A stretch of DNA of 64,000 nt, taken from positions 32,001 to 96,000 of IMG/VR virus record IMGVR_UViG_3300048929_000185. One strand, 5' to 3'. This DNA comes from a virus. Under the pieces are notes generated by a model that ran no database searches, was not told where the DNA came from, and saw only the letters and a program-made list of their open reading frames with translations. A program made the position numbers and the translations under genes. Below are positions 3,563 to 61,123 of this stretch, one piece after another. How positions within the stretch are numbered: position 1 is the first letter of the stretch; every line of letters starts with the position of its first letter.

Positions 3563-3970
3563 TTATTCAATTAAAGTAACTTTTCCATCGTTAAATTCCC
3601 ATTTCCATTCGCTGCCGTCTTCTCCTACAAAACAGAGAAACGACCCAGGTTCTACATATGTAGCAATTGCACTAAAAAATATTTTTTCATCTCCATATTT
3701 TTCTCCAACAAATTCAACATCACAAATATCTCCAGCCAAATTAAATATTGGTAAATATCTTATACCAGTTAATCCGTCTTCAAGTCTTTTACTATCAAGT
3801 ACAAATTTTGTAGACACCCATTTAAAATGAGGAATTCTTTCACCATCAATACTATCGTAACATGTCATATTTTCGGTAACAAACACACTTTTCAAGCTAT
3901 TTAGCGCCTTTGTAAAGTTTTCCTTTCTAATAATAAAATTACTATCTGTCATTTCTATAAGATACCCCAT
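3563..3970 (-). CDS. Hypothetical phage protein
   Basis: ORF with RBS; GEDG..WKWEF C-terminus. Confidence 0.75.
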   Translation of the reverse strand: MGYLIEMTDSNFIIRKENFTKALNSLKSVFVTENMTCYDSIDGERIPHFKWVSTKFVLDSKRLEDGLTGIRYLPIFNLAGDICDVEFVGEKYGDEKIFFSAIATYVEPGSFLCFVGEDGSEWKWEFNDGKVTLIE

Positions 3971-3971
3971 T

Positions 3972-4178
3972 CTATTCCTCCTTTAGTTTTACAATTTTTT
4001 CAATTAAATCAATATCTACACGACTTCCATCTATAACAAGTTCCCCACCGCTTCCAGATTCATACCAGATCTCTTCTAGCATTCCGTCTCTATGCCAACC
4101 ATTAAAATAGTATGCGGACACTTCATCTCCAATTTTCACCATGCTACAATCTTCATTTATTAATCCGGTTTTAACCAT
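3972..4178 (-). CDS. Hypothetical phage protein
   Basis: ORF with RBS. Confidence 0.65.
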   Translation of the reverse strand: MVKTGLINEDCSMVKIGDEVSAYYFNGWHRDGMLEEIWYESGSGGELVIDGSRVDIDLIEKIVKLKEE

Positions 4179-4220
4179 ATGTACCGTTCCTTTCTCCTGC
4201 CATGAAACAGGTATTCTATT

Positions 4221-4676
4221 CTATTTAGATGCTTCCATCAATTTTGAAAGCAAAAGTTTTTCTTCTGCCGGCATATTATTAAACTTTGTAATTACGTCCA
4301 TAATATATTCTGCTTTATAATACGGGATCTCTTCTAGCTTTTTATATACTTCAGATAATTCCTTATTCAATTCTGCAACTGCATTTTTAACCTGTTCAAT
4401 TCTCGGCTTTTGATCGGAAACTAATTGGCTATACTTACAATATAAATCTTCGCTCTTGCTTATTTCTTCTTCCACTGCTTTCCTATATTCGTCTCTAACC
4501 TTTTTAGCATGCAATTTAAAATTCAAGAAACTATCTTCTAAACATTCGTCCATTGCACTAGTGTCTCCGACAATTCTATTTACAGTTTCTTTAATGTCCT
4601 TTCCTTTTAATTTAATGCAATCCATTATCAAATCAAAATACGGCTCTAGCTCATCATCAATATGCTTATATCCCAT
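4221..4676 (-). CDS. Hypothetical coiled-coil protein
   Basis: Start reset to ATG 4676 after AGGAGA. Confidence 0.7.
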   Translation of the reverse strand: MGYKHIDDELEPYFDLIMDCIKLKGKDIKETVNRIVGDTSAMDECLEDSFLNFKLHAKKVRDEYRKAVEEEISKSEDLYCKYSQLVSDQKPRIEQVKNAVAELNKELSEVYKKLEEIPYYKAEYIMDVITKFNNMPAEEKLLLSKLMEASK

Positions 4677-4716
4677 ATATTCTCCTTTTCTCTTTAAAAG
4701 ATTTATTTTATCCACA

Positions 4717-5046
4717 TTAGATACACCCACCACAGCTTCCGTGCCTCCAGTCCTTGCTTTGGAATGCGTCATAAATTTGGATTTTTAATTCATGATCAGA
4801 AGATATGTTATTTAACCAATAATTGTTTTTTTCGATCCATTCTTCACAAAACAATCCGTCATCATAATCTTCAAATACTTCACTCCACTCTTCGAAGTGC
4901 CATTCCTGATACGTTCCGTATGTATTCATGTCACTGCATCTTATGTCGTCTGGTATTTTATCTGAAACATCGATATCATCAACAAATAAACTCCATTTAC
5001 CGAAACACAAACACGGATATGCTCCACTCCATTCCACTGATACCAT
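4717..5046 (-). CDS. Hypothetical phage protein (C-terminal SCGGCI)
   Basis: ORF with GGAGG RBS. Confidence 0.75.
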   Translation of the reverse strand: MVSVEWSGAYPCLCFGKWSLFVDDIDVSDKIPDDIRCSDMNTYGTYQEWHFEEWSEVFEDYDDGLFCEEWIEKNNYWLNNISSDHELKIQIYDAFQSKDWRHGSCGGCI

Positions 5047-30788: not shown

Positions 30789-30857
30789 ACGGACTTGTGA
30801 CCGTCTGACTTGCGTCAGGTGCATTAAAACGGCTATGTGTCAGCCGTTTCACTCTGC
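30789..30857 (-). ncRNA. Twister-like self-cleaving ribozyme, circularly permuted (type P5)
   Basis: Minus strand GCA-GAGUG-[AAACGGCU/AGCCGUUU]-UAA-UGC-AC-[CUGAC GCAA GUCAG]-[ACGG UCACAAGU CCGU]; CAC/GUG and AC/GU pseudoknots. Confidence 0.7.
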
Positions 30858-30860
30858 TGA

Positions 30861-38590: not shown

Positions 38591-39445
38591 ATGGAGGGAT
38601 GTATTATTTTAACTTGTAAATTAGGAAGCGAATTTATTAATTGTTATGATGGCGGTCATGACCGGGAGCAACTCAAAAAATGGGCAGCAAAAAGAATATT
38701 ATTATGCCCCGCATGTGGAAAGCCGTATGAATATTGCCACGGCAAAGTAAAAATGCCTTATTTTAGGCATATGGATAAAGAAAAGTGTGAAGACTCATAT
38801 TCTGAACCAGAAACAGAAGAACATTTGATGGGCAAATGGAGATTGTATGAATGGATAAAGAAACAAAATGGAGTTACTGATGCATATTTAGAGGGATGGA
38901 TTCCAGAAACTAAACAGAGACCAGACATTGTATTTAGATACTATGGCGAAAAATGTGTAATTGAGTACCAGTGTAGCCCAATTAGCTCAGAATACTACGA
39001 AAGACATAATCTATATAAAAGTAGTGGAATTAAAGATGTTTGGATTTGTGGAGTGGAAAAATATATACAATGTTTACACGCCGGTAGTGGAGCTAAAAGG
39101 TTAAATGTATTAGAGGAAAGTTGTAAATTATATTTTAATTCTGAAACAAACCAATTTTATAAAATTGATCCAAGAATGACGAAAGAAGATTTTGATAAAA
39201 TACGAGATAACAAAAGATGTAAATTAATGAAAAATGTAAATGATTATGTTAATTGTAATATAAAAAAATACATCGAAGTTAAAAATTCTTCTCTTAGTTA
39301 TGATAAATTTTATAGATATCCGTCTCCTACAGGTAGAAGTTCAAGAAAGTATCCATACCCAGTTCCAGTGTTTAAGTATAGTCGTAATGTGTCTTTGGCG
39401 GAGTGTTTTGATTTAAATACGTTAGTGCTAAAAGGGATAATTTAA
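38591..39445 (+). CDS. CoiA-like zinc-finger PD-(D/E)xK nuclease
   Basis: LLCPACG..PYFRH, ETEEH..GK, QRPDI, IEYQCSPIS. Confidence 0.8.
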   Translation: MEGCIILTCKLGSEFINCYDGGHDREQLKKWAAKRILLCPACGKPYEYCHGKVKMPYFRHMDKEKCEDSYSEPETEEHLMGKWRLYEWIKKQNGVTDAYLEGWIPETKQRPDIVFRYYGEKCVIEYQCSPISSEYYERHNLYKSSGIKDVWICGVEKYIQCLHAGSGAKRLNVLEESCKLYFNSETNQFYKIDPRMTKEDFDKIRDNKRCKLMKNVNDYVNCNIKKYIEVKNSSLSYDKFYRYPSPTGRSSRKYPYPVPVFKYSRNVSLAECFDLNTLVLKGII

Positions 39446-39458
39446 GGAGGGAAACAAA

Positions 39459-42400
39459 TTGAGTAAAGCAAAAGTATCTCCAAGATTTATTTTAAAGATT
39501 CATTCAGCTAGATTAAGAAGAAATAACTGGAAACTAAGTTTAACAATTAGTCAGGCAAGGGAAAACAATGAACTTATCTCTCTGAATGATAGTCAAATGC
39601 TTCGATGGTTAGATGAACTGAATAATATTAAAAATCCAAATATATATACCGAGTATTTAAAAGATAAGATAAAAAAATTAAAATATGACGATGATATCAA
39701 AAAAACACAAAGAGAAATTAAAATGCTTTTGAGTGAAATTGATGATTTACTATACAAGCGAGATTATGTATGCATTGTGATTGATAAGATATCAGATTTT
39801 GACAAATTACATTTAAATGGATTTGAATTAAATAATAAGAAATACGTGAGATTACTCGGTACTACTGGTGGAGTAAAAAATGAAACAGTTGTATTTATAA
39901 GTGAAAAACATGCAGGTGAGATTAGACGGCGTATAAACAATGAAAGGGATGAAACGAAGGAATTTTCTCCTGCAAAATTAGAAGCATATAAATCTTTGAC
40001 TTGTAGTGCTTCTACTCCGGTGTCGTATCCAAAAGGAATTTGTGTAGTACATGACTGTATTACTCATTTTAATTCAGATGTTATTTTATTAGATGATACA
40101 GACATAGATCAACCAAAAATGATTTTTAAAAAAGATGAGCTAATAGAGTTAATTGACAGCGATGGATACGGTTTGGGAATGCCTTCGTTAATGGAACGCT
40201 GGGGAAGTGAATTGGGGGAAGATTATATTCTGCCAGGCTGTGTTATAAGAAATAGCTTCTGTAAGGGCGCTGTATTCTGCGTCGACTTCCAAAAATTTGC
40301 AAGAGATAGAGGAATAAAATACATACAAGACGTGTGGGGAACTTGGCACCACGTTCACAACATAGAATTAATTTTAACTGAATCTATGTTAAAACTATGG
40401 GATTCTTATCACTCTATTTATACATATCTGTACAATTGCAAAAAAAACCATTATGATTTTGCAATAACAAAAGCATCTGAAGAAAACTTAGAAAATGTTA
40501 GAAATATGAACTATCAGTTTTTACAAAGTTACGATTTTACTGACAAAGATTTAGATGAGTTAATATCTCCTACTATATCTGAAATAAATGATATTCTTTC
40601 TGGAGATTATAGAAAAACCATACTATACACAAAAGGAACTCATTTGACAAATAGAACGGTACAGCATCTCGACTCATCTTTCGCAACGGCTCTTATGATA
40701 GATGAGAGAATGAAAGACGACCCGTATATACAAAATCAAATTAATAAAATGATAAATAAGCGAATAAACGAAGCAAAAGTTGGAGTGTTAACTGTTCCAG
40801 CTAATTATTCATTGGTGTGCGGAGATCCTTACTCTTTGTGTCAATCAATGTTTGGAATTAAAATAACTGGATTATTGAAATCTGGTCAGGTATATTCAAA
40901 ATACTGGATTAACAGCGGAGTTTATAAAGTATCTAGTTTTCGCGCACCAATGACGTGTCATAATAATATTAGATTGTTGGAAGTTGTTCATGACGACGAA
41001 ATGGACGATTTTTACAAGTATATGACAACTATTACAATTTTTAATAGCTGGGACACGTCTGATAAAGCCATGAATGGCATGGATAAGGATTTGATTAATT
41101 TCTGTCCTTGTAAAACTTGGTGAACCTAGATATCTAGGGTGTACATATTACGGATAGGAACTGTAGGAAATGACAGTTAGAATATGTGCTAACGGGGGAG
41201 GGTTTAATATCCTAATCGCCGTGCTAAAAATCAAATAATTATTTGATTTATGTGGAACGACTATCGAAAGGATAATTACGAAGAAATATCGTAGTGAATA
41301 ACCGAGTAGAGTACATAATGTTTGAAATATCATTATGGAAGCGCCAAGGCTCAGTATGACGGTAAAAGAAATATTGAGTATGATATAGTCTATTCCCCTA
41401 ATAAATATCGGGAAACCGAGGGTAGATAAGGGCGACTGTGTAATCAATACATCAATGGACGTTATTGTAAGGAACACAAAACAACTGCCGGCGATTATGT
41501 GTGTGCAACGAAAAGCTCCAAAATGTGTGCCTACTGAAGATGATTTTTTTCAATCAAACATAAATAGCTTTGGGAACGATGTTGGTTCAACAACAAACAA
41601 AATAACCTCAATGTTTGAAGTTCAATCTCGTTATCCTGTTGGAAGTAGAGAATACAATATTTTGGATTATAGGATTAAGTGTGGGCAGCTTTATCAGCAA
41701 AATGCGATAGACAAGACAAAAGGAATAGATGCAAAGCCTATGCCAGAGTCTTGGAGCGATTGGGCTTCTAACCGTCTAAGTAAACGAAATAAAGAAGGAA
41801 AAATCGAATTACTTGATTTACCAAATGACGAGAGAAAAAAAAGAGTATTTAATCGCAATGTAATCGCAGATAAGAAACCTTATTTTATGCGTTACATCTA
41901 TCCGCAGTGCGATAAAGAGTATATGAATTATATTAAATACACATCTGAAAAATGTAGGATTAAATTTGACAAATCTTTAGACGAATTAATTCAATGCAAA
42001 TCAAAAACAGATGAAGAAAGTAGATTTTTTGATTATTATGAGAGTCACTTTCCTTTAGGAATGAGTCCGTGTGTAGTAAATAGGATTTGCTGGAAAATCG
42101 AAAAAGAATTTGATGGTAAATTAAATACAGATTCACGTAAAGAGTTTGATTATTCGATTCTGCAAAGTACTGGTGTTATATACTCAACAGATTTGTATAA
42201 AAAAATACAAAAAATATATAAAGATTATAAAACTGTATCTTCAAGATATTCGGCAGAAGCAAAAAATAAACGTATTAAATCAGACGAAAGACGATTACAA
42301 AGATATGCCATTAAAAGTACATTTATTAATATGTGCTTAATTGCTTGCCCGGATGAAGATATTTTATGTAATATTATATTAGACATGTGCTACAAAAATA

Positions 42401-42597
42401 ATTCGTCAAAACAGTTTGCGTGGGATGTATGTGGAAAAACATTTATTAAAAATTTACTCAGATTAAATGATTTTAAAATTTCGTATCCAACAAAATCGGG
42501 TGATGGTGACATAATTTTTAATGGTGAAAAATTTAAAATTGAAACCTGTGATATAAAAGTTGAAGTAAATGTTGATGATTCGGAGGAAAATGAATGA
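39459..42597 (+). CDS. YonO-like single-subunit DNA-dependent RNA polymerase (exons 39459-41090 and 41431-42597; about 932 aa)
   Basis: DGYG, IRNSFCKG, RAP motifs; splicing restores MNGMDKDGD; later GSTTN and QQNAIDKTKG; SPbeta-like context. Confidence 0.88.
41091..41430 (+). ncRNA. Group I self-splicing intron, 340 nt, no ORF
   Basis: Exon ends in U pairing with G in P1 (AAGGAT/GTCCTT); P3 CTTGGTG/CGCCAAG; P7 GACTAT 41259/ATAGTC 41385; GAAA-capped P9; terminal G; removal restores the frame. Confidence 0.92.
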
Positions 42598-43364
42598 GCT
42601 TAATATTAAATGAGGTTAAATATGTAGAAGAAATTTTAAAAACAGGCGAAGTGGGCAGAAAGCCTTCTTCTACCCTGTTATTACTTGCAAAATATTATTA
42701 TAACGAAAAATGCTTAAGAGACAAAGAAATTGAGATAAAACTTGATGAGTTTATGAATAAAAATTATCCAAACTATAATAAAGTGTTTTGGGAAAATAGT
42801 ATTGAATCATATTCAAAAAAGGCTGGTAAGTACACATTAAATAAAATTGAAGAAATTCCAATTACGGAGTTAGAGTTAAAAGTGATTGCATCTGTATGTG
42901 ATTCAAGATTGGAAAGGTTTTTATTCACGATGCTGTGTTATGCAAAGGCTTATGATATGATAAATGATAAAAATAATGGGTGGATAAATACAGATCTATC
43001 AGTTATCTACAATACTGCAAGATTAAGGGCGAGGAGGAGCGATGATCGGTTCCATATGGTAAATCAATTATTAAAACTATCTTATGGGCAAAACAATGAT
43101 TTATTAATATCGATATCTCAAAAAAATACCAATAGAAATATAAAAATAAACTTTATAGATTTTTCAAATAACGTAGTTTTACATATATCAGATTTAAGAG
43201 AACTTGGGTACGAATATATGTTGTATAAAGGAGACAATTTTGTCAGATGTGAGAAATGTGGGCGATTAATTAGAAAGAAAAAAAACAAAAAATATTGTTC
43301 TGAGTGTTCTGTTTTAGCAAGAAATGATAGACAGAAAGAATATATGAGAATAAGAAGATGTTAG
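42594..43364 (+). CDS. Conserved hypothetical protein with C-terminal zinc ribbon, coupled to the RNAP gene
   Basis: ATGA overlap; CEKCG...YCSEC. Confidence 0.8.
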   Translation: MSLILNEVKYVEEILKTGEVGRKPSSTLLLLAKYYYNEKCLRDKEIEIKLDEFMNKNYPNYNKVFWENSIESYSKKAGKYTLNKIEEIPITELELKVIASVCDSRLERFLFTMLCYAKAYDMINDKNNGWINTDLSVIYNTARLRARRSDDRFHMVNQLLKLSYGQNNDLLISISQKNTNRNIKINFIDFSNNVVLHISDLRELGYEYMLYKGDNFVRCEKCGRLIRKKKNKKYCSECSVLARNDRQKEYMRIRRC

Positions 43365-43931: not shown

Positions 43932-45374
43932 GTGGTTTTGACCATCGCAAAGAAAAAAGAAAAAATTTCAGTATCATTTGTTGATGAACCGGCTAGTGAG
44001 GACGTAACTGGCAGTTGTGTTTATATCGAAACACCAAACCATAAGATTTTACTTGATATGGGTTTACATCAATCAAATAATAAATACGAAGATTTTTTAG
44101 TAAATAACAGAAAGTTTGCGAAATTCAAAGCAAAAGACATTGACTTAGTTTTTATATCACACTTGCATGGAGATCATTGTCTTGCCGTACCAAAACTATA
44201 CAGAGATGGGTTTAGAGGGGCAACTGTGCTACCCAGAAGCTCTAAAGGTGTATTTAAGACCATGGCAAGCGATTCAGCCTACATCGCAGAACGGGATATA
44301 TTTGTCATAAATGATCAAAATAGTAAAAATTATAACCCGCTTTATGATATTTCAGACGTAAATACAATGCTTGAATATACTATCGAAAGACCCATCGGAG
44401 AAAAGATATTTATAGACGACGAGCTATCTTTTATGTTTGTTCCAAGCGGGCATTTATTAAATAGTTGTCAGATCATTCTTTATATTACAGTCGATGGATT
44501 AACAAAAACTATCGTTTATACGGGCGATATTGGCAATAAAAAGATAGACAATTATTTCGTAGGTAAATTTGAGATGGTACCGTCATGCGACATATTGATT
44601 GGAGAATCTACATATGGAGATAGACCAGATTTAAAGACTGGCAAAAAAGAGCGTGACAATGATCTAAATAAGTTAAAATCGGTTATTGATAGACAGATAA
44701 AAGAAATGAATGGTAGGGTGTTGATCCCATCATTTGCGCAGTCAAGAATTCAGCAGTTAGCATTGATGATTTATGAACTCTATAAAAATGAGCCATGGCA
44801 GCCAAAAGTATATATCGACTCCCCTCTTGCTATCTCAATATTTAAAGATTATGCTGAAATATTGGAAGGCGATGATAAGAAGAAATTCGATGAAATGCTT
44901 AAATGGGAAAATCTAGTATTCGTTAAAGAAACACAGGCCAGTAAAGCGCTAGTATCTTCAATTGAGCCATGTTGCATTCTTTCAACTGCTGGAATGTGTC
45001 AGGTTGGTCGTGTGAGACATCATTTAAAGTCTTTGGTTGGGAATCCAAATGCTACTATTCTATTTGTTGGCTTTAGTACTGAAGGCAGCCTTGCGAGTAT
45101 GTTAAAGGACAATAAAAGAAAATCAATCACAATTGATGGCAAAGAATACGATTGCAGATGTAGTTCTTATAGTCTTAAAAGCATGTCAGGACACGCACCA
45201 TTTGATCAGTTAGTGGATATTTATTCATCTATAAACTGTAATAAAATTGTACTGCACCATGGTAGTAGGGAAGCAAAAGAAACATTAGCGCTGGCACTTA
45301 AAAATGAATTAGAAAAGAAATGTAAGTCAACCCGCGTAATTATTTCTAATTCAAGCTTGAGATTTTCATTATAA
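43932..45374 (+). CDS. MBL-fold beta-CASP ribonuclease
   Basis: LDMG, SHLHGDH, SGH, YTGD, ESTYG, MSGHA, LHHG. Confidence 0.92.
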   Translation: MVLTIAKKKEKISVSFVDEPASEDVTGSCVYIETPNHKILLDMGLHQSNNKYEDFLVNNRKFAKFKAKDIDLVFISHLHGDHCLAVPKLYRDGFRGATVLPRSSKGVFKTMASDSAYIAERDIFVINDQNSKNYNPLYDISDVNTMLEYTIERPIGEKIFIDDELSFMFVPSGHLLNSCQIILYITVDGLTKTIVYTGDIGNKKIDNYFVGKFEMVPSCDILIGESTYGDRPDLKTGKKERDNDLNKLKSVIDRQIKEMNGRVLIPSFAQSRIQQLALMIYELYKNEPWQPKVYIDSPLAISIFKDYAEILEGDDKKKFDEMLKWENLVFVKETQASKALVSSIEPCCILSTAGMCQVGRVRHHLKSLVGNPNATILFVGFSTEGSLASMLKDNKRKSITIDGKEYDCRCSSYSLKSMSGHAPFDQLVDIYSSINCNKIVLHHGSREAKETLALALKNELEKKCKSTRVIISNSSLRFSL

Positions 45375-60127: not shown

Positions 60128-61123
60128 ATGAGTAAAGAAATTATCAAAATTGCGGTAGAGGCATATAAGGGAAGACAGTATGGAAATTATTCCACTTCCG
60201 ATTCAATGGAAGTATTAAGAAACGCTTTAGTAGAAGCAAATAATGGCAAGGCATATTTAGATTATAGAGACATTCGAGATGGAAAATGCAGTGGATTATT
60301 CGCAATTATGGAAGAGATTATCACAAAGACAGTTCTTGAAGGACTGCCAGACTCCTCTCCTATTTTCCAGTTTGTAGATTTTAGAAATAAGGCACTCGGC
60401 GATCAGGATTCCTTTATCGTAAGGGATACTGGTCTTTTTACTGTTGCCGATATTGCTGAAGGAACACAGGGAGTAAGAAGACAGAGAGCCGTAAGCGGAG
60501 AAACAATTTATGTAACTCCACAGCTGAAGGCAATTAAGATCTATGATGAACTGAATCTTATTTTAGCTAATCGTATTGATATGAACGAATTAATTAACAG
60601 AGTATCAAGATCTTTTATTGCTAAGACAAATACAGACATCTACACATCATTTGCCGGTACATATTCTAAACTTGTTGCACCATATCAGGTATCAGGTACA
60701 TTTGCAGAAGATAAACTTGCAACATTAATTGATCATGTAGAAGCAGCTACTGGTATGACTGCATATGTTTTAGGTTCAAAACAGGCAGTTAGAAAGATTA
60801 CTGGCGTTAAGGGTGCTGATTCAGATTCTGCAAAAGAGGCTCTTTACAACGTAGGATATTATGGTAACTTTGGAGCAAATCCAGTTATCGCAATGCAGAA
60901 CGCTCACAAAGTGGGTTCTACTGATTTTGTTTTAAATGATACAGATTTACATGTTGTAGCAGGTGAAGATAAATTTATCAAGTATGTAACAGAAGGTGAT
61001 ACCTTGATTATTCCGGGAACACCAATGTCTAACGCAGATCTCTCCCAGGAGTTCTTAATGGCTCAAAGAAGCAATGCAGGTATCGTTATGTCTGAAGTGT
61101 TTGGATGTTATAGAATTGGCTAA
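60128..61123 (+). CDS. Major capsid protein (YonB-like)
   Basis: 331 aa, position, FVDFRNKALGD, followed by a strong terminator. Confidence 0.8.
   Translation: MSKEIIKIAVEAYKGRQYGNYSTSDSMEVLRNALVEANNGKAYLDYRDIRDGKCSGLFAIMEEIITKTVLEGLPDSSPIFQFVDFRNKALGDQDSFIVRDTGLFTVADIAEGTQGVRRQRAVSGETIYVTPQLKAIKIYDELNLILANRIDMNELINRVSRSFIAKTNTDIYTSFAGTYSKLVAPYQVSGTFAEDKLATLIDHVEAATGMTAYVLGSKQAVRKITGVKGADSDSAKEALYNVGYYGNFGANPVIAMQNAHKVGSTDFVLNDTDLHVVAGEDKFIKYVTEGDTLIIPGTPMSNADLSQEFLMAQRSNAGIVMSEVFGCYRIG

What the first reader, a model, noticed from the sequence alone, without database searches (positions are those of the whole stretch)
41085..41436. Group I intron inserted in the catalytic DxDGD motif of the phage RNA polymerase
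Seen: GAT AAG GAT | 340 nt | GGC GAC. Splicing gives D-K-D-G-D in frame, and P1 with a U-G pair, P3, P7 and the terminal G are identifiable. Established: DxDGD binds the catalytic Mg in YonO-type two-barrel polymerases, and group I introns favour conserved sites. Inference: late transcription depends on splicing, and automated annotation would call two broken genes. The intron has no endonuclease, so mobility would need one in trans.
Basis: partly seen in the sequence, partly recalled or inferred. Interest (0 to 1): 0.75.

Follow-up and report, generated by a model that had tools for sequence, protein, structure and literature searches.

The report
Group I intron splits phage RNA polymerase
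A 340-base group I intron sits inside the catalytic aspartate motif of a phage's YonO-type RNA polymerase gene, so the enzyme can probably be made only after RNA splicing; it is an ordinary kind of phage intron in a gene where it seems to have been overlooked.

Summary
Exon 1 (39459-41090) ends GAT AAG GAT. A 340-nt insert follows (41091-41430). Exon 2 starts GGC GAC at 41431.

Removing the insert gives AMNGMDKD|GDCVINTS. This matches uninterrupted alleles in the closest relatives: L009 has AMNGLDKD|GDCVINVS and L010 has AMNGFDKD|GDCVINTS.

The insert is a group I ribozyme with no ORF.
- Rfam sees it only weakly: 21.3 bits, below the 50-bit cut-off.
- A profile built from 13 related phage introns, without this one, hits it alone in the 123-kb genome (E 2.6e-33).
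- P1 (U41090·G41104), P3, P7, P4-P6, P8, P9 and the terminal G41430 are all placed. P3 and P7 covary across the family.
- It is about 70-74% identical to DNA-polymerase introns of Staphylococcus and Bacillus phages, but its guide sequence fits the RNA polymerase exon.

The same site carries an intron in L052, in Clostridium phage c-st (annotated since deposit as N- and C-terminal YonO fragments) and in L005 (948 nt, with an HNH endonuclease). Relatives use three further insertion sites in this gene.

Splicing itself is untested, because no RNA run holds the stretch. I file it as a new member of a known kind. The nearest published parallel I found is the PhiPA3 RNA polymerase intron.

The parts
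39459..41090 (+). Exon 1 of the YonO-type RNA polymerase gene (544 codons, TTG start), ending ...AMNGMDKD
   Evidence: PHROG phrog_25339 E 9.5e-169 and phrog_8308 E 4.7e-66. Aligned to uninterrupted homologues.
41085..41090 (+). P1, exon strand AAGGAU; U41090 is the 5' splice-site U
   Evidence: Six pairs with 41104-41109, U41090.G41104. Recovered by the unconstrained fold.
41091..41430 (+). Group I intron, 340 nt, no ORF
   Evidence: RF00028 21.3 bits, E 0.0048 in a 751-nt search. Family nhmmer profile E 2.6e-33. 92% identical to the same-site intron of L052.
41104..41109 (+). Internal guide sequence GUCCUU (P1 3' strand), followed by the family-conserved joiner GUAAAA
   Evidence: It sits at the position where the DNA-polymerase introns L054, L055 and L061 have GCCGUA before GUAAAA.
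41121..41123 (+). In-frame TGA that ends translation of unspliced exon 1
41116..41120 (+). P3 5' strand CUUGG (the free-energy fold extends it to 41122)
   Evidence: Pairs with 41344-41348. 19 of 22 anchored family sequences keep an exact complement, in 8 sequence variants; L005 adds a ninth.
41125..41189 (+). Two hairpins between P3 and P4 (41125-41138; 41141-41189 with inner hairpin 41160-41177). Provisional names only.
   Evidence: Both covary in L055, L058, L066, L068 and L074 (read).
41192..41253 (+). P4-P5-P6/P6a domain
   Evidence: Rfam alignment; pairs listed; fold
41259..41263 (+). P7 5' strand GACUA
   Evidence: Pairs with 41386-41390. L066 has GAUCA/UGAUC, two compensatory pairs.
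41264..41337 (+). P7.1 (41264-41272) and two further hairpins (41275-41295, 41314-41337) around the conserved GAGUAGAGUACAU
   Evidence: Hairpins are kept with different sequences across the sequences parsed (13 for 41275-41295; 14 of 15 for 41314-41337, L068 mis-parsed).
41344..41348 (+). P3 3' strand CCAAG
41350..41378 (+). P8 hairpin
41386..41390 (+). P7 3' strand UAGUC, preceded by J8/7 GAUA
41396..41422 (+). P9 (CCC/GGG) enclosing a GAAA-capped hairpin UCGG/CCGA
   Evidence: The inner helix covaries (UAGC/GCUA in L071, UCUG/CAGA in L061).
41430..41430 (+). Terminal G (omega G), 8 nt after the P9 GGG, as in L052, L005, L054, L061, L069 and c-st
41431..42597 (+). Exon 2 (388 codons plus stop), beginning GDCVINTS. 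Its first canonical start codon is only at 41455.
   Evidence: phrog_35857 E 8.1e-67.

Best explanation
Window 41091-41430 is an ORF-less group I intron. It belongs to a phage lineage best known from DNA-polymerase genes of Staphylococcus and Bacillus phages. It is inserted between the second Asp codon and the Gly codon of the catalytic D-x-D-G-D loop of a YonO/QDE-1-type single-chain two-barrel RNA polymerase.

Inferred mechanism: the pre-mRNA folds. The guide sequence GUCCUU (41104-41109) pairs with the exon end AAGGAU (41085-41090) to form P1, with a U.G wobble at the splice site. An exogenous guanosine bound in P7 attacks after U41090. The terminal G41430 then takes that site, and the exons are ligated to give ...GAT AAG GAT|GGC GAC... 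This encodes one 932-residue polymerase with an intact Asp triad.

Without splicing, translation stops 11 codons into the intron. The Gly-Asp of the triad cannot be translated, so an active enzyme depends on splicing.

Shown here: boundaries, fold elements, family membership, and intron-less and intron-bearing alleles. Inferred: catalysis, its efficiency in vivo, and that this polymerase drives late transcription.
For: (1) Exact restoration of the reading frame. Exon 1 ends AMNGMDKD and exon 2 starts GDCVINTS. Uninterrupted alleles read AMNGLDKD|GDCVINVS (L009, 76% identity over the 297-residue exon 1 query), AMNGFDKD|GDCVINTS (L010) and AMNGCDFD|GDAIYST (phage PMBT24). Uninterrupted proteins are 918-931 aa; the two exons here sum to 544+388.
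(2) The 8 codons GDCVINTS lie upstream of the first ATG/GTG/TTG of exon 2. An in-frame TAG at 41386-41388 precedes them, so they can only be translated after splicing. Against L052 they differ at 3 of 24 bases, all synonymous.
(3) Ribozyme identity. RF00028 scores 21.3 bits, E 0.0048, in a 751-nt search, with the J6/7-P7 GACUA and J8/7-P7 GAUAUAGUC blocks aligned. An nhmmer profile of the 3' domain of 13 other family members gives one hit in the whole 123,206-nt record, at window 41243-41431, E 2.6e-33.
(4) Covariation. For P3, 19 of 22 anchored sequences carry the exact reverse complement at the anchored place, in 8 variants. The three misses are two loci cut short upstream and L072. P7 changes GACUA/UAGUC to GAUCA/UGAUC in L066. 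The hairpins 41275-41295, 41314-41337 and P8 are kept with different sequences in 13, 14 of 15 and 14 of 15 parsed sequences.
(5) The unconstrained fold recovers P1, P3, both 5' hairpins, P4/P5, P6a and P8; z = -4.04, 0 of 100 shuffles as stable.
(6) Homology over intron positions 20-127 and 143-334 to the Staphylococcus phage Stau2 DNA-polymerase intron, and 20-52 and 162-334 to a Bacillus Agatevirus one (70-82% identity by segment). The Agatevirus intron scores 41.2 bits on RF00028. The guide sequence occupies the same position and matches each intron's own exon.
(7) Window versus L052: intron 312 of 339 aligned bases identical (92%), exon 1 706 of 891 (79%), exon 2 884 of 1161 (76%), third codon positions 165 of 297 and 209 of 388. 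Of 28 substitutions, 12 lie in helices and 9 of those keep pairing, including one A-U to G-C double change.
(8) Same-site introns occur in L052, in c-st and L048 (317 nt; RF00028 25.4 bits, E 1.5e-4 locally) and in L005 (948 nt with an HNH ORF, phrog_59 E 7.7e-41).
Against: No RNA evidence: no listed run is on record as RNA, so splicing is not shown. RF00028 is below its 50-bit gathering score, and the intron is missed in both whole-window scans and in the whole-genome family search. P10 is weak: I saw at most 2 possible pairs by eye. Three of the 12 helix substitutions against L052 break a pair, all at helix ends. The layout departs from the textbook order, with two hairpins between P3 and P4 and three between P7 and P3'. 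My helix names there are provisional, and subgroup models (GISSD) were not available. The higher conservation of the intron than of the exons could reflect recent transfer rather than function.
Confidence: 0.88

Rival explanations
1. The insert is a decayed group I intron that no longer splices. The polymerase is made as two polypeptides (39459-41123 and 41455-42597) that assemble, as in the split RNA polymerase subunits of jumbo phages.
For: Two separate ORFs are what gene callers report. There is no homing endonuclease, as expected late in an intron's life cycle. Rfam score is below threshold.
Against: The break lies inside the Asp triad, and the G-D codons have no start codon, so the third Asp would be lost. 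YonO with its three Asp changed to Asn is inactive (passage of PMC5467207). The intron is better conserved (92%) than the exons (76-79%), and all core helices are intact. The untranslatable codons GDCVINTS change only synonymously.
Confidence: 0.05
2. It is a group I intron that splices in vivo only with help: a host or phage RNA chaperone, or a maturase supplied in trans. It does not self-splice efficiently.
For: Weak P10 and an AT-rich core (35% G+C in the Rfam match). No test of catalysis was possible.
Against: Nothing in the data argues for a cofactor, and no maturase-like ORF is in the intron. From recall only: related phage introns (SPO1, Twort, T4 td) self-splice in vitro.
Confidence: 0.06
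3. The resemblance is chance: an intergenic spacer between two independent genes.
For: None beyond the sub-threshold Rfam score.
Against: E 2.6e-33 against a family profile built without this sequence. The frame is restored exactly. Uninterrupted alleles exist in 39 of 45 related loci at this site cluster.
Confidence: 0.01

Closest known systems
Group I introns in DNA polymerase genes of Herelleviridae (Staphylococcus phage Stau2, Bacillus Agatevirus; the SPO1/Bastille type)
   Same: Same ribozyme lineage: 70-82% identity by segment, spanning intron positions 20-334 apart from a short gap at P6. Same conserved blocks (GUAAAAC-P3-UGAAC, AACGACUAUCGAAAGG, AACCGAGUAGAGUACAU, GGAAGYG-P3', GAUAUAGUC, CGGGAAACCGAGGGUA) and the same helix order.
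   Different: Host gene and guide sequence: GUCCUU pairs with AAGGAU here, while GCCGUA lies just downstream of exon UACGGU there. Stau2 carries an HNH gene between the equivalents of intron positions 127 and 143; this intron carries none.
PhiPA3 gp210 intron in the virion RNA polymerase gene gp211/gp209 (Science 2024, PMC11620839; passages read)
   Same: A phage intron, described there in the context of self-splicing group I introns, that interrupts an RNA polymerase gene next to conserved acidic residues. The paper says the insertion site borders the second Asp at the end of gp211. My translation of gp211 ends ...GSMNDD followed by an intron-coded tail.
   Different: That gene is annotated as a beta-like subunit of a multisubunit polymerase of a Pseudomonas jumbo phage. 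The motif is therefore not the D-x-D-G-D loop. That intron encodes an HNH nicking endonuclease shown to act in phage competition.
Clostridium phage c-st CST179 / CST178 ('YonO-homolog, N-ter only')
   Same: Orthologous gene (49-53% identity over exon 1 C-terminal queries), interrupted at exactly the same codon boundary: GAT ATG GAT | 317 nt ending in G | GGA GAT.
   Different: A different, more canonical group I lineage: only about 38 nt around J8/7-P7 align to the window intron. It is annotated as separate genes, with no intron feature in the record.
SPbeta YonO (PMC5467207; abstract and passages read)
   Same: Same protein family. The Spbetavirus BUCT082 homologue matches exon 1 at E 9e-24. 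The paper shows a catalytic Asp triad and transcription of late genes.
   Different: No interruption at this site in the Spbetavirus gene fetched (L003).

Membership tests
Group I intron | 5' splice site after a U that forms a U.G wobble with an internal guide sequence (P1) | tested here: met
   U41090.G41104 plus five Watson-Crick pairs. Recovered in the unconstrained fold. The guide lies at the position homologous to that of related introns.
Group I intron | Terminal G at the 3' splice site | tested here: met
   G41430. The spacing of 8 nt from P9 is shared by L052, L005, L054, L061, L069 and c-st.
Group I intron | Conserved core: P4-P6 domain, and P3-P8 / P7 domain with the P3/P7 pseudoknot | tested here: met
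   All helices placed with standard pairs. P3 covaries: 19 of 22 sequences, 8 variants. P7 covaries in L066. P4-P6 aligned by RF00028.
Group I intron | Score at or above the Rfam RF00028 gathering cut-off (50 bits). This is a curators' threshold, not a biological property. | tested here: inconclusive
   21.3 bits. The related Agatevirus DNA-polymerase intron also stays below it at 41.2 bits. PMC11878797 (passages) says Rfam and GISSD models may fail to recognise phage introns.
Group I intron | Removal restores an uninterrupted conserved reading frame | tested here: met
Group I intron | Guanosine-dependent self-splicing | not testable with these tools
   No RNA holder listed.
Subgroup IA (IA2-like phage introns) | Extra hairpins P7.1/P7.2 between P7 and P3' | tested here: met
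   Three hairpins between 41264 and 41337. Assignment to IA2 or IA3 was not tested, because no subgroup models were on hand.
Mobile intron with its own homing endonuclease | Endonuclease ORF inside the intron | tested here: not met
   No + strand ORF of 40 aa or more in 41091-41430. The antisense 109-aa ORF 41148-41477 has no family. Relatives L005 and Stau2 do carry HNH genes.
YonO / QDE-1-type two-barrel RNA polymerase | Catalytic D-x-D-G-D loop | tested here: met
   D-K-D + G-D across the splice junction, aligned to DFDGD of PMBT24 and DKDGD of L009 and L010. D541, D543 and D545 are invariant in 17 homologues.
YonO / QDE-1-type two-barrel RNA polymerase | Sequence homology to YonO | tested here: met
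   tblastn to the Spbetavirus BUCT082 gene: 28.8% identity, E 9e-24. c-st annotation note. PF05183 precomputed on 12 of the 120 listed homologues. Pfam found nothing on the exons themselves or on L009.
YonO / QDE-1-type two-barrel RNA polymerase | Fold | tested here: met
   AlphaFold model of the uninterrupted homologue L009 (pLDDT 65, catalytic region below 50). All Foldseek matches down to rank 19 are RDR2 or QDE-1 (best E 3.4e-7, TM 0.31-0.44), then E jumps to about 1. This is moderate support only, given the model quality.
YonO / QDE-1-type two-barrel RNA polymerase | DNA-dependent RNA synthesis; transcription of late genes | not testable with these tools
   Extrapolated from SPbeta YonO.

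The most novel reading that the evidence does not exclude
The few codons that encode the catalytic loop of YonO-type polymerases are a multi-lineage homing hotspot. Insertions lie at -8, -6 and 0 nt relative to DxD|GD, from at least two, probably three, ribozyme lineages, and another site lies 91 codons downstream. One ribozyme lineage has been re-aimed repeatedly between DNA polymerase, ribonucleotide reductase, portal and RNA polymerase genes by changing only its guide sequence. As with PhiPA3 gp210, the HNH-bearing versions (such as L005) could serve phages of Clostridia-like hosts as weapons against co-infecting relatives by cutting their polymerase gene. The ORF-less copy here would then be an immunised allele left behind.
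Probability: 0.3. Interest if true: 0.6.

Novelty: new member of a known kind. Interest (0 to 1): 0.45.

Why it matters
The finding corrects gene models. A single ~932-residue polymerase is currently reported as two unrelated ORFs in records such as c-st, and as separate PHROG families. Surveys of phage transcription machinery may therefore undercount or misread YonO-type enzymes.

It adds a single-chain two-barrel RNA polymerase to the phage genes that carry group I introns at catalytic residues. It also shows a natural series in which one ribozyme scaffold carries different guide sequences for sites 6-8 nt apart and for unrelated genes. That series is useful for studying how introns change targets.

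It does not change what is known about how group I introns work.

Tried and rejected
Rfam at gathering threshold on the whole window, at E<=1 on the whole window, and RF00028 on the whole genome record all missed this intron. Only the 751-nt local search found it.

The only RF00028 hit in the genome search, window 60767-60992 (14.2 bits), lies inside an intact 331-aa ORF (60128-61123). I take it as a false positive.

The P3 proposed by the Rfam alignment (intron 93-100 with 220-227) was rejected. It is not kept in L055 (flagged non-canonical). The 5' strand instead forms a covarying local hairpin (intron 51-59 with 91-99). A second candidate, GUGC with GCGC, also failed across the family.

RNA evidence: no RNA holder is listed. 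Laying four runs showed only DNA contigs with the intron present (X1, which may be the source; X2; X3). There were no joints. A second variant in X2 shares the L052 substitutions I compared. The run guessed to be RNA (X5) matched only the conserved P9 stretch of other introns.

Pfam found nothing on either exon or on L009. A PDB sequence search of exon 1 found nothing meaningful.

The AlphaFold model is weak in the catalytic core, so the active-site geometry was not examined.

Flanking exon identity to L052 is only slightly raised next to the intron (54 of 60 in the last 60 nt, against 42-52 of 60 elsewhere). That is not enough to call a co-conversion tract.

PMC162337 and PMC308352, which describe the Bastille and HMU-phage intron structures, are not held, so the published helix nomenclature for this lineage could not be checked. 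Supplementary files were not requested; those of PMC11878797 (predicted intron structures) may bear on subgroup and naming.

Literature searches for an intron in a YonO-type gene returned no paper that holds both YonO and group I intron in that sense. The 2010 two-barrel review (PMC2919709, passages) mentions a mobile intron only in a jumbo-phage beta-like subunit.
Full report
WHAT IS THERE

The window is bases 32001-96000 of a 123,206-nt IMG/VR virus record, estimated 62% complete. An ORF from 39459 reads ...AMNGMDKD, with GAT AAG GAT at 41082-41090. It then runs 10 more codons to a TGA at 41121-41123. From 41431 a second frame reads GDCVINTSMDVI... to 42597. Its first ATG/GTG/TTG is only at 41455, and an in-frame TAG lies at 41386-41388.

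THE GENE

- PHROGs places the two halves in separate families of unknown function: phrog_25339 (E 9.5e-169) and phrog_35857 (E 8.1e-67). Exon 1 also matches positions 61-551 of the 847-position phrog_8308. Pfam finds nothing.
- tblastn of the last 197 residues of exon 1 finds 10 phage records. They include Clostridium phage c-st (52.8%), six Enterocloster phages (44.4%) and the Spbetavirus BUCT082 (28.8%, E 9e-24).
- The c-st record annotates its copy as 'SP beta YonO-homolog (N-ter only)'.
- A search with the uninterrupted relative L009 finds 4076 proteins at E<=1e-5 among 7999 scored candidates. Most listed are 919-926 aa, and 12 of the 120 listed carry PF05183, the cellular RdRP family.
- An AlphaFold model of L009 is mediocre: pLDDT 65, with the catalytic region below 50. 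Even so, every Foldseek match shown down to rank 19 is plant RDR2 or fungal QDE-1 (best E 3.4e-7), after which E jumps to about 1.
- Passages of PMC5467207 say that the YonO Asp triad is essential (the 3D>3N mutant is inactive) and that YonO transcribes SPbeta late genes. Passages of PMC2919709 give DYDGD as the QDE-1 motif and group YonO-like proteins with it.

The gene is thus a YonO/QDE-1-type two-barrel polymerase.

THE JUNCTION

I fetched 45 IMG/VR loci that encode relatives and compared both exons with them.
- The closest uninterrupted alleles read AMNGLDKD|GDCVINVS (L009, 76% over the 297-residue exon 1 query) and AMNGFDKD|GDCVINTS (L010, 73%).
- PMBT24 reads AMNGCDFD|GDAIYST.
- Joining 41090 to 41431 reproduces this block exactly. 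The product would be 544+388 = 932 residues, against 918-931 for uninterrupted relatives.
- Moving the junction by one base would break the frame or the motif.

THE RIBOZYME

Rfam's RF00028 finds the insert only in a local search: 21.3 bits, E 0.0048, cut-off 50. Three wider scans miss it. Three other lines of evidence are stronger.

First, homology.
- In a blastn of the locus against 50,697 phage records, 28 of the 30 rows listed match only inside the intron.
- The matches lie in the split DNA polymerase genes of Staphylococcus phage Stau2 and a Bacillus Agatevirus.
- Pairwise, the window intron aligns to Stau2 over positions 20-127 and 143-334, and to the Agatevirus intron over 20-52 and 162-334, at 70-82% identity by segment.
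- That Agatevirus intron scores 41.2 bits on RF00028.
- Passages of PMC11878797 list the phiAGATE polymerase intron among those chosen for laboratory tests. They also state that Rfam and GISSD models may miss phage introns.

Second, a family.
- A 17-nt core string fetched 20 IMG/VR stretches. Two of them (L062, L067) are not introns of this kind.
- An nhmmer profile of the 3' domain of 13 members, excluding the window and L052, hits the 123-kb genome once, at window 41243-41431, with E 2.6e-33.

Third, structure.
- P1: AAGGAU (41085-41090) pairs with GUCCUU (41104-41109), with U41090.G41104.
- P3: 41116-41120 pairs with 41344-41348.
- P4-P5-P6/P6a: 41192-41253.
- P7: 41259-41263 pairs with 41386-41390.
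- P8: 41350-41378.
- P9 with a GAAA-capped inner hairpin: 41396-41422.
- Terminal G: 41430.
- The unconstrained fold recovers every nested helix, with z = -4.04.
- P3 covaries. In 19 of 22 anchored sequences, the five bases after GGAAGNG have their exact complement just before UGAAC. There are eight sequence variants, and L005 adds a ninth. The three misses are L056 and L069, both cut short upstream, and L072.
- P7 changes at two pairs together in L066.
- The hairpins between P7 and P3', and P8, keep their shape with different sequences in the sequences parsed (one regex mis-parse, L068).
- The guide sequence sits just before the conserved GUAAAA joiner. In the DNA-polymerase introns GCCGUA sits there, just downstream of exon UACGGU.

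The layout differs from the textbook order. There is no P2 here. Two hairpins lie between P3 and P4, and three lie between P7 and P3'. I could not check published names for these because the papers are not held.

CONSERVATION

- Against L052, a different phage with the same-site intron, the intron is 92% identical (312 of 339).
- The exons are 79% (706 of 891) and 76% (884 of 1161) identical, and third codon positions are 56% and 54%.
- Of 28 intron substitutions, 12 fall in helices. Nine of those keep pairing, including one double compensatory change; three break terminal pairs.
- This pattern fits constraint on the RNA, recent transfer, or both.

DISTRIBUTION

Among the 45 loci:
- 22 have no insertion.
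- 17 have only a ~1039-1045-nt insertion after the equivalent of exon 2 residue 91 (LYQQ|NAIDK).
- 3 have an intron exactly at DxD|GD: L052 (339 nt) and c-st/L048 (317 nt).
- 3 (L034, L037, L043) have a 1119-nt insertion 8 nt upstream. L034 also carries the downstream one, which scores 69.9 bits on RF00028.

Further observations:
- The c-st intron scores 25.4 bits, E 1.5e-4, locally. It aligns to the window intron only around P7, so it is a different lineage at the same site.
- L005, a faecal phage whose polymerase is only ~28% identical, has a 948-nt intron at the same boundary. It shares the window intron's architecture and carries an HNH gene.
- Members of the window's ribozyme family also interrupt phrog_8308 polymerases in L057/L059 and L074.
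- From the sequences I infer junctions CAG U|UU GAU GUU GAU GGA GAU (site -8) and UUC GAU|GUU GAU GGA GAU (site -6), each with a matching guide sequence. These two junctions are inferred, not checked against intron-less alleles.
- Other members sit in DNA polymerase, class I and anaerobic ribonucleotide reductase, and portal genes.

WHAT IS NOT SHOWN

- Splicing was not observed. No RNA run holds the stretch.
- DNA contigs from three root-metagenome runs carry the intron and show no intron-less joint.
- That the polymerase serves late transcription is extrapolated from SPbeta.

COMPARISON AND VERDICT

The nearest published parallel I found is the PhiPA3 intron in a virion RNA polymerase gene. 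According to passages of PMC11620839, it borders the second Asp at the end of gp211 and encodes an HNH nickase used in phage competition. The record annotates gp211 as a beta-type subunit, and my translation ends ...GSMNDD. So it lies next to a different acidic motif, in a multisubunit enzyme.

Four literature searches gave no paper that describes an intron in a YonO-type gene. The c-st record has carried the split annotation without an intron feature.

I rate this a real and well-supported group I intron. It is a new member of a known kind, of moderate interest.

Noticed in passing
window 30789-30858 (-): Type-P5 twister ribozyme, 51.3 bits against a cut-off of 37.6, E 9.8e-8, full model length.
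   Followed up: no
window 38591-39445 (+): The gene immediately upstream of the polymerase encodes a CoiA-like nuclease (PF06054, 94.5 bits, plus CoiA_N). No PHROG family. I did not test whether it acts as a free-standing homing nuclease.
   Followed up: partly
window 42594-43364 (+): A 256-aa ORF overlaps the polymerase stop codon by 4 nt (phrog_30716, E 7.6e-27). The equivalent c-st gene, CST177, is annotated as a 'YonO-homolog (C-ter only)', so part of the polymerase may be a separate subunit in these phages.
   Followed up: no
window 43932-45374 (+): A beta-CASP / metallo-beta-lactamase RNA-processing-type nuclease (Beta-Casp 87.4 bits, RMMBL 31.6 bits) lies close downstream of the polymerase.
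   Followed up: no
window 60767-60992 (+): Weak RF00028 match (14.2 bits) inside an intact 331-aa ORF in the structural-gene region. Taken as a false positive.
   Followed up: yes
window 41148-41477 (-): A 109-aa antisense ORF covers most of the intron and runs into exon 2. It is hydrophobic and has no family match, so it is probably not a gene.
   Followed up: partly
L012 and 16 other loci at ~3695-4733; L004 2076-3230; L034 4804-5119: A second, frequent insertion site in the same polymerase gene, after LYQQ (exon 2 residue 91). It holds ~1040-nt inserts, and in L034 a clear group I intron (69.9 bits). Enterocloster phage CB457P2 has an annotated 251-aa ORF in the insert, while PMBT24 is uninterrupted.
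   Followed up: partly
L057/L059, L074, L058, L063, L068, L064, L066, L071, L061: One ribozyme family (shared 17-nt core) occurs in YonO-type polymerase, DNA polymerase, class I and anaerobic ribonucleotide reductase, and portal genes of uncultured phages.
   Followed up: partly
Read-laying run X2 on window 40995-41407: The same root-metagenome run holds two variants of the intron-bearing allele. The second carries the substitutions that I compared with L052.
   Followed up: no
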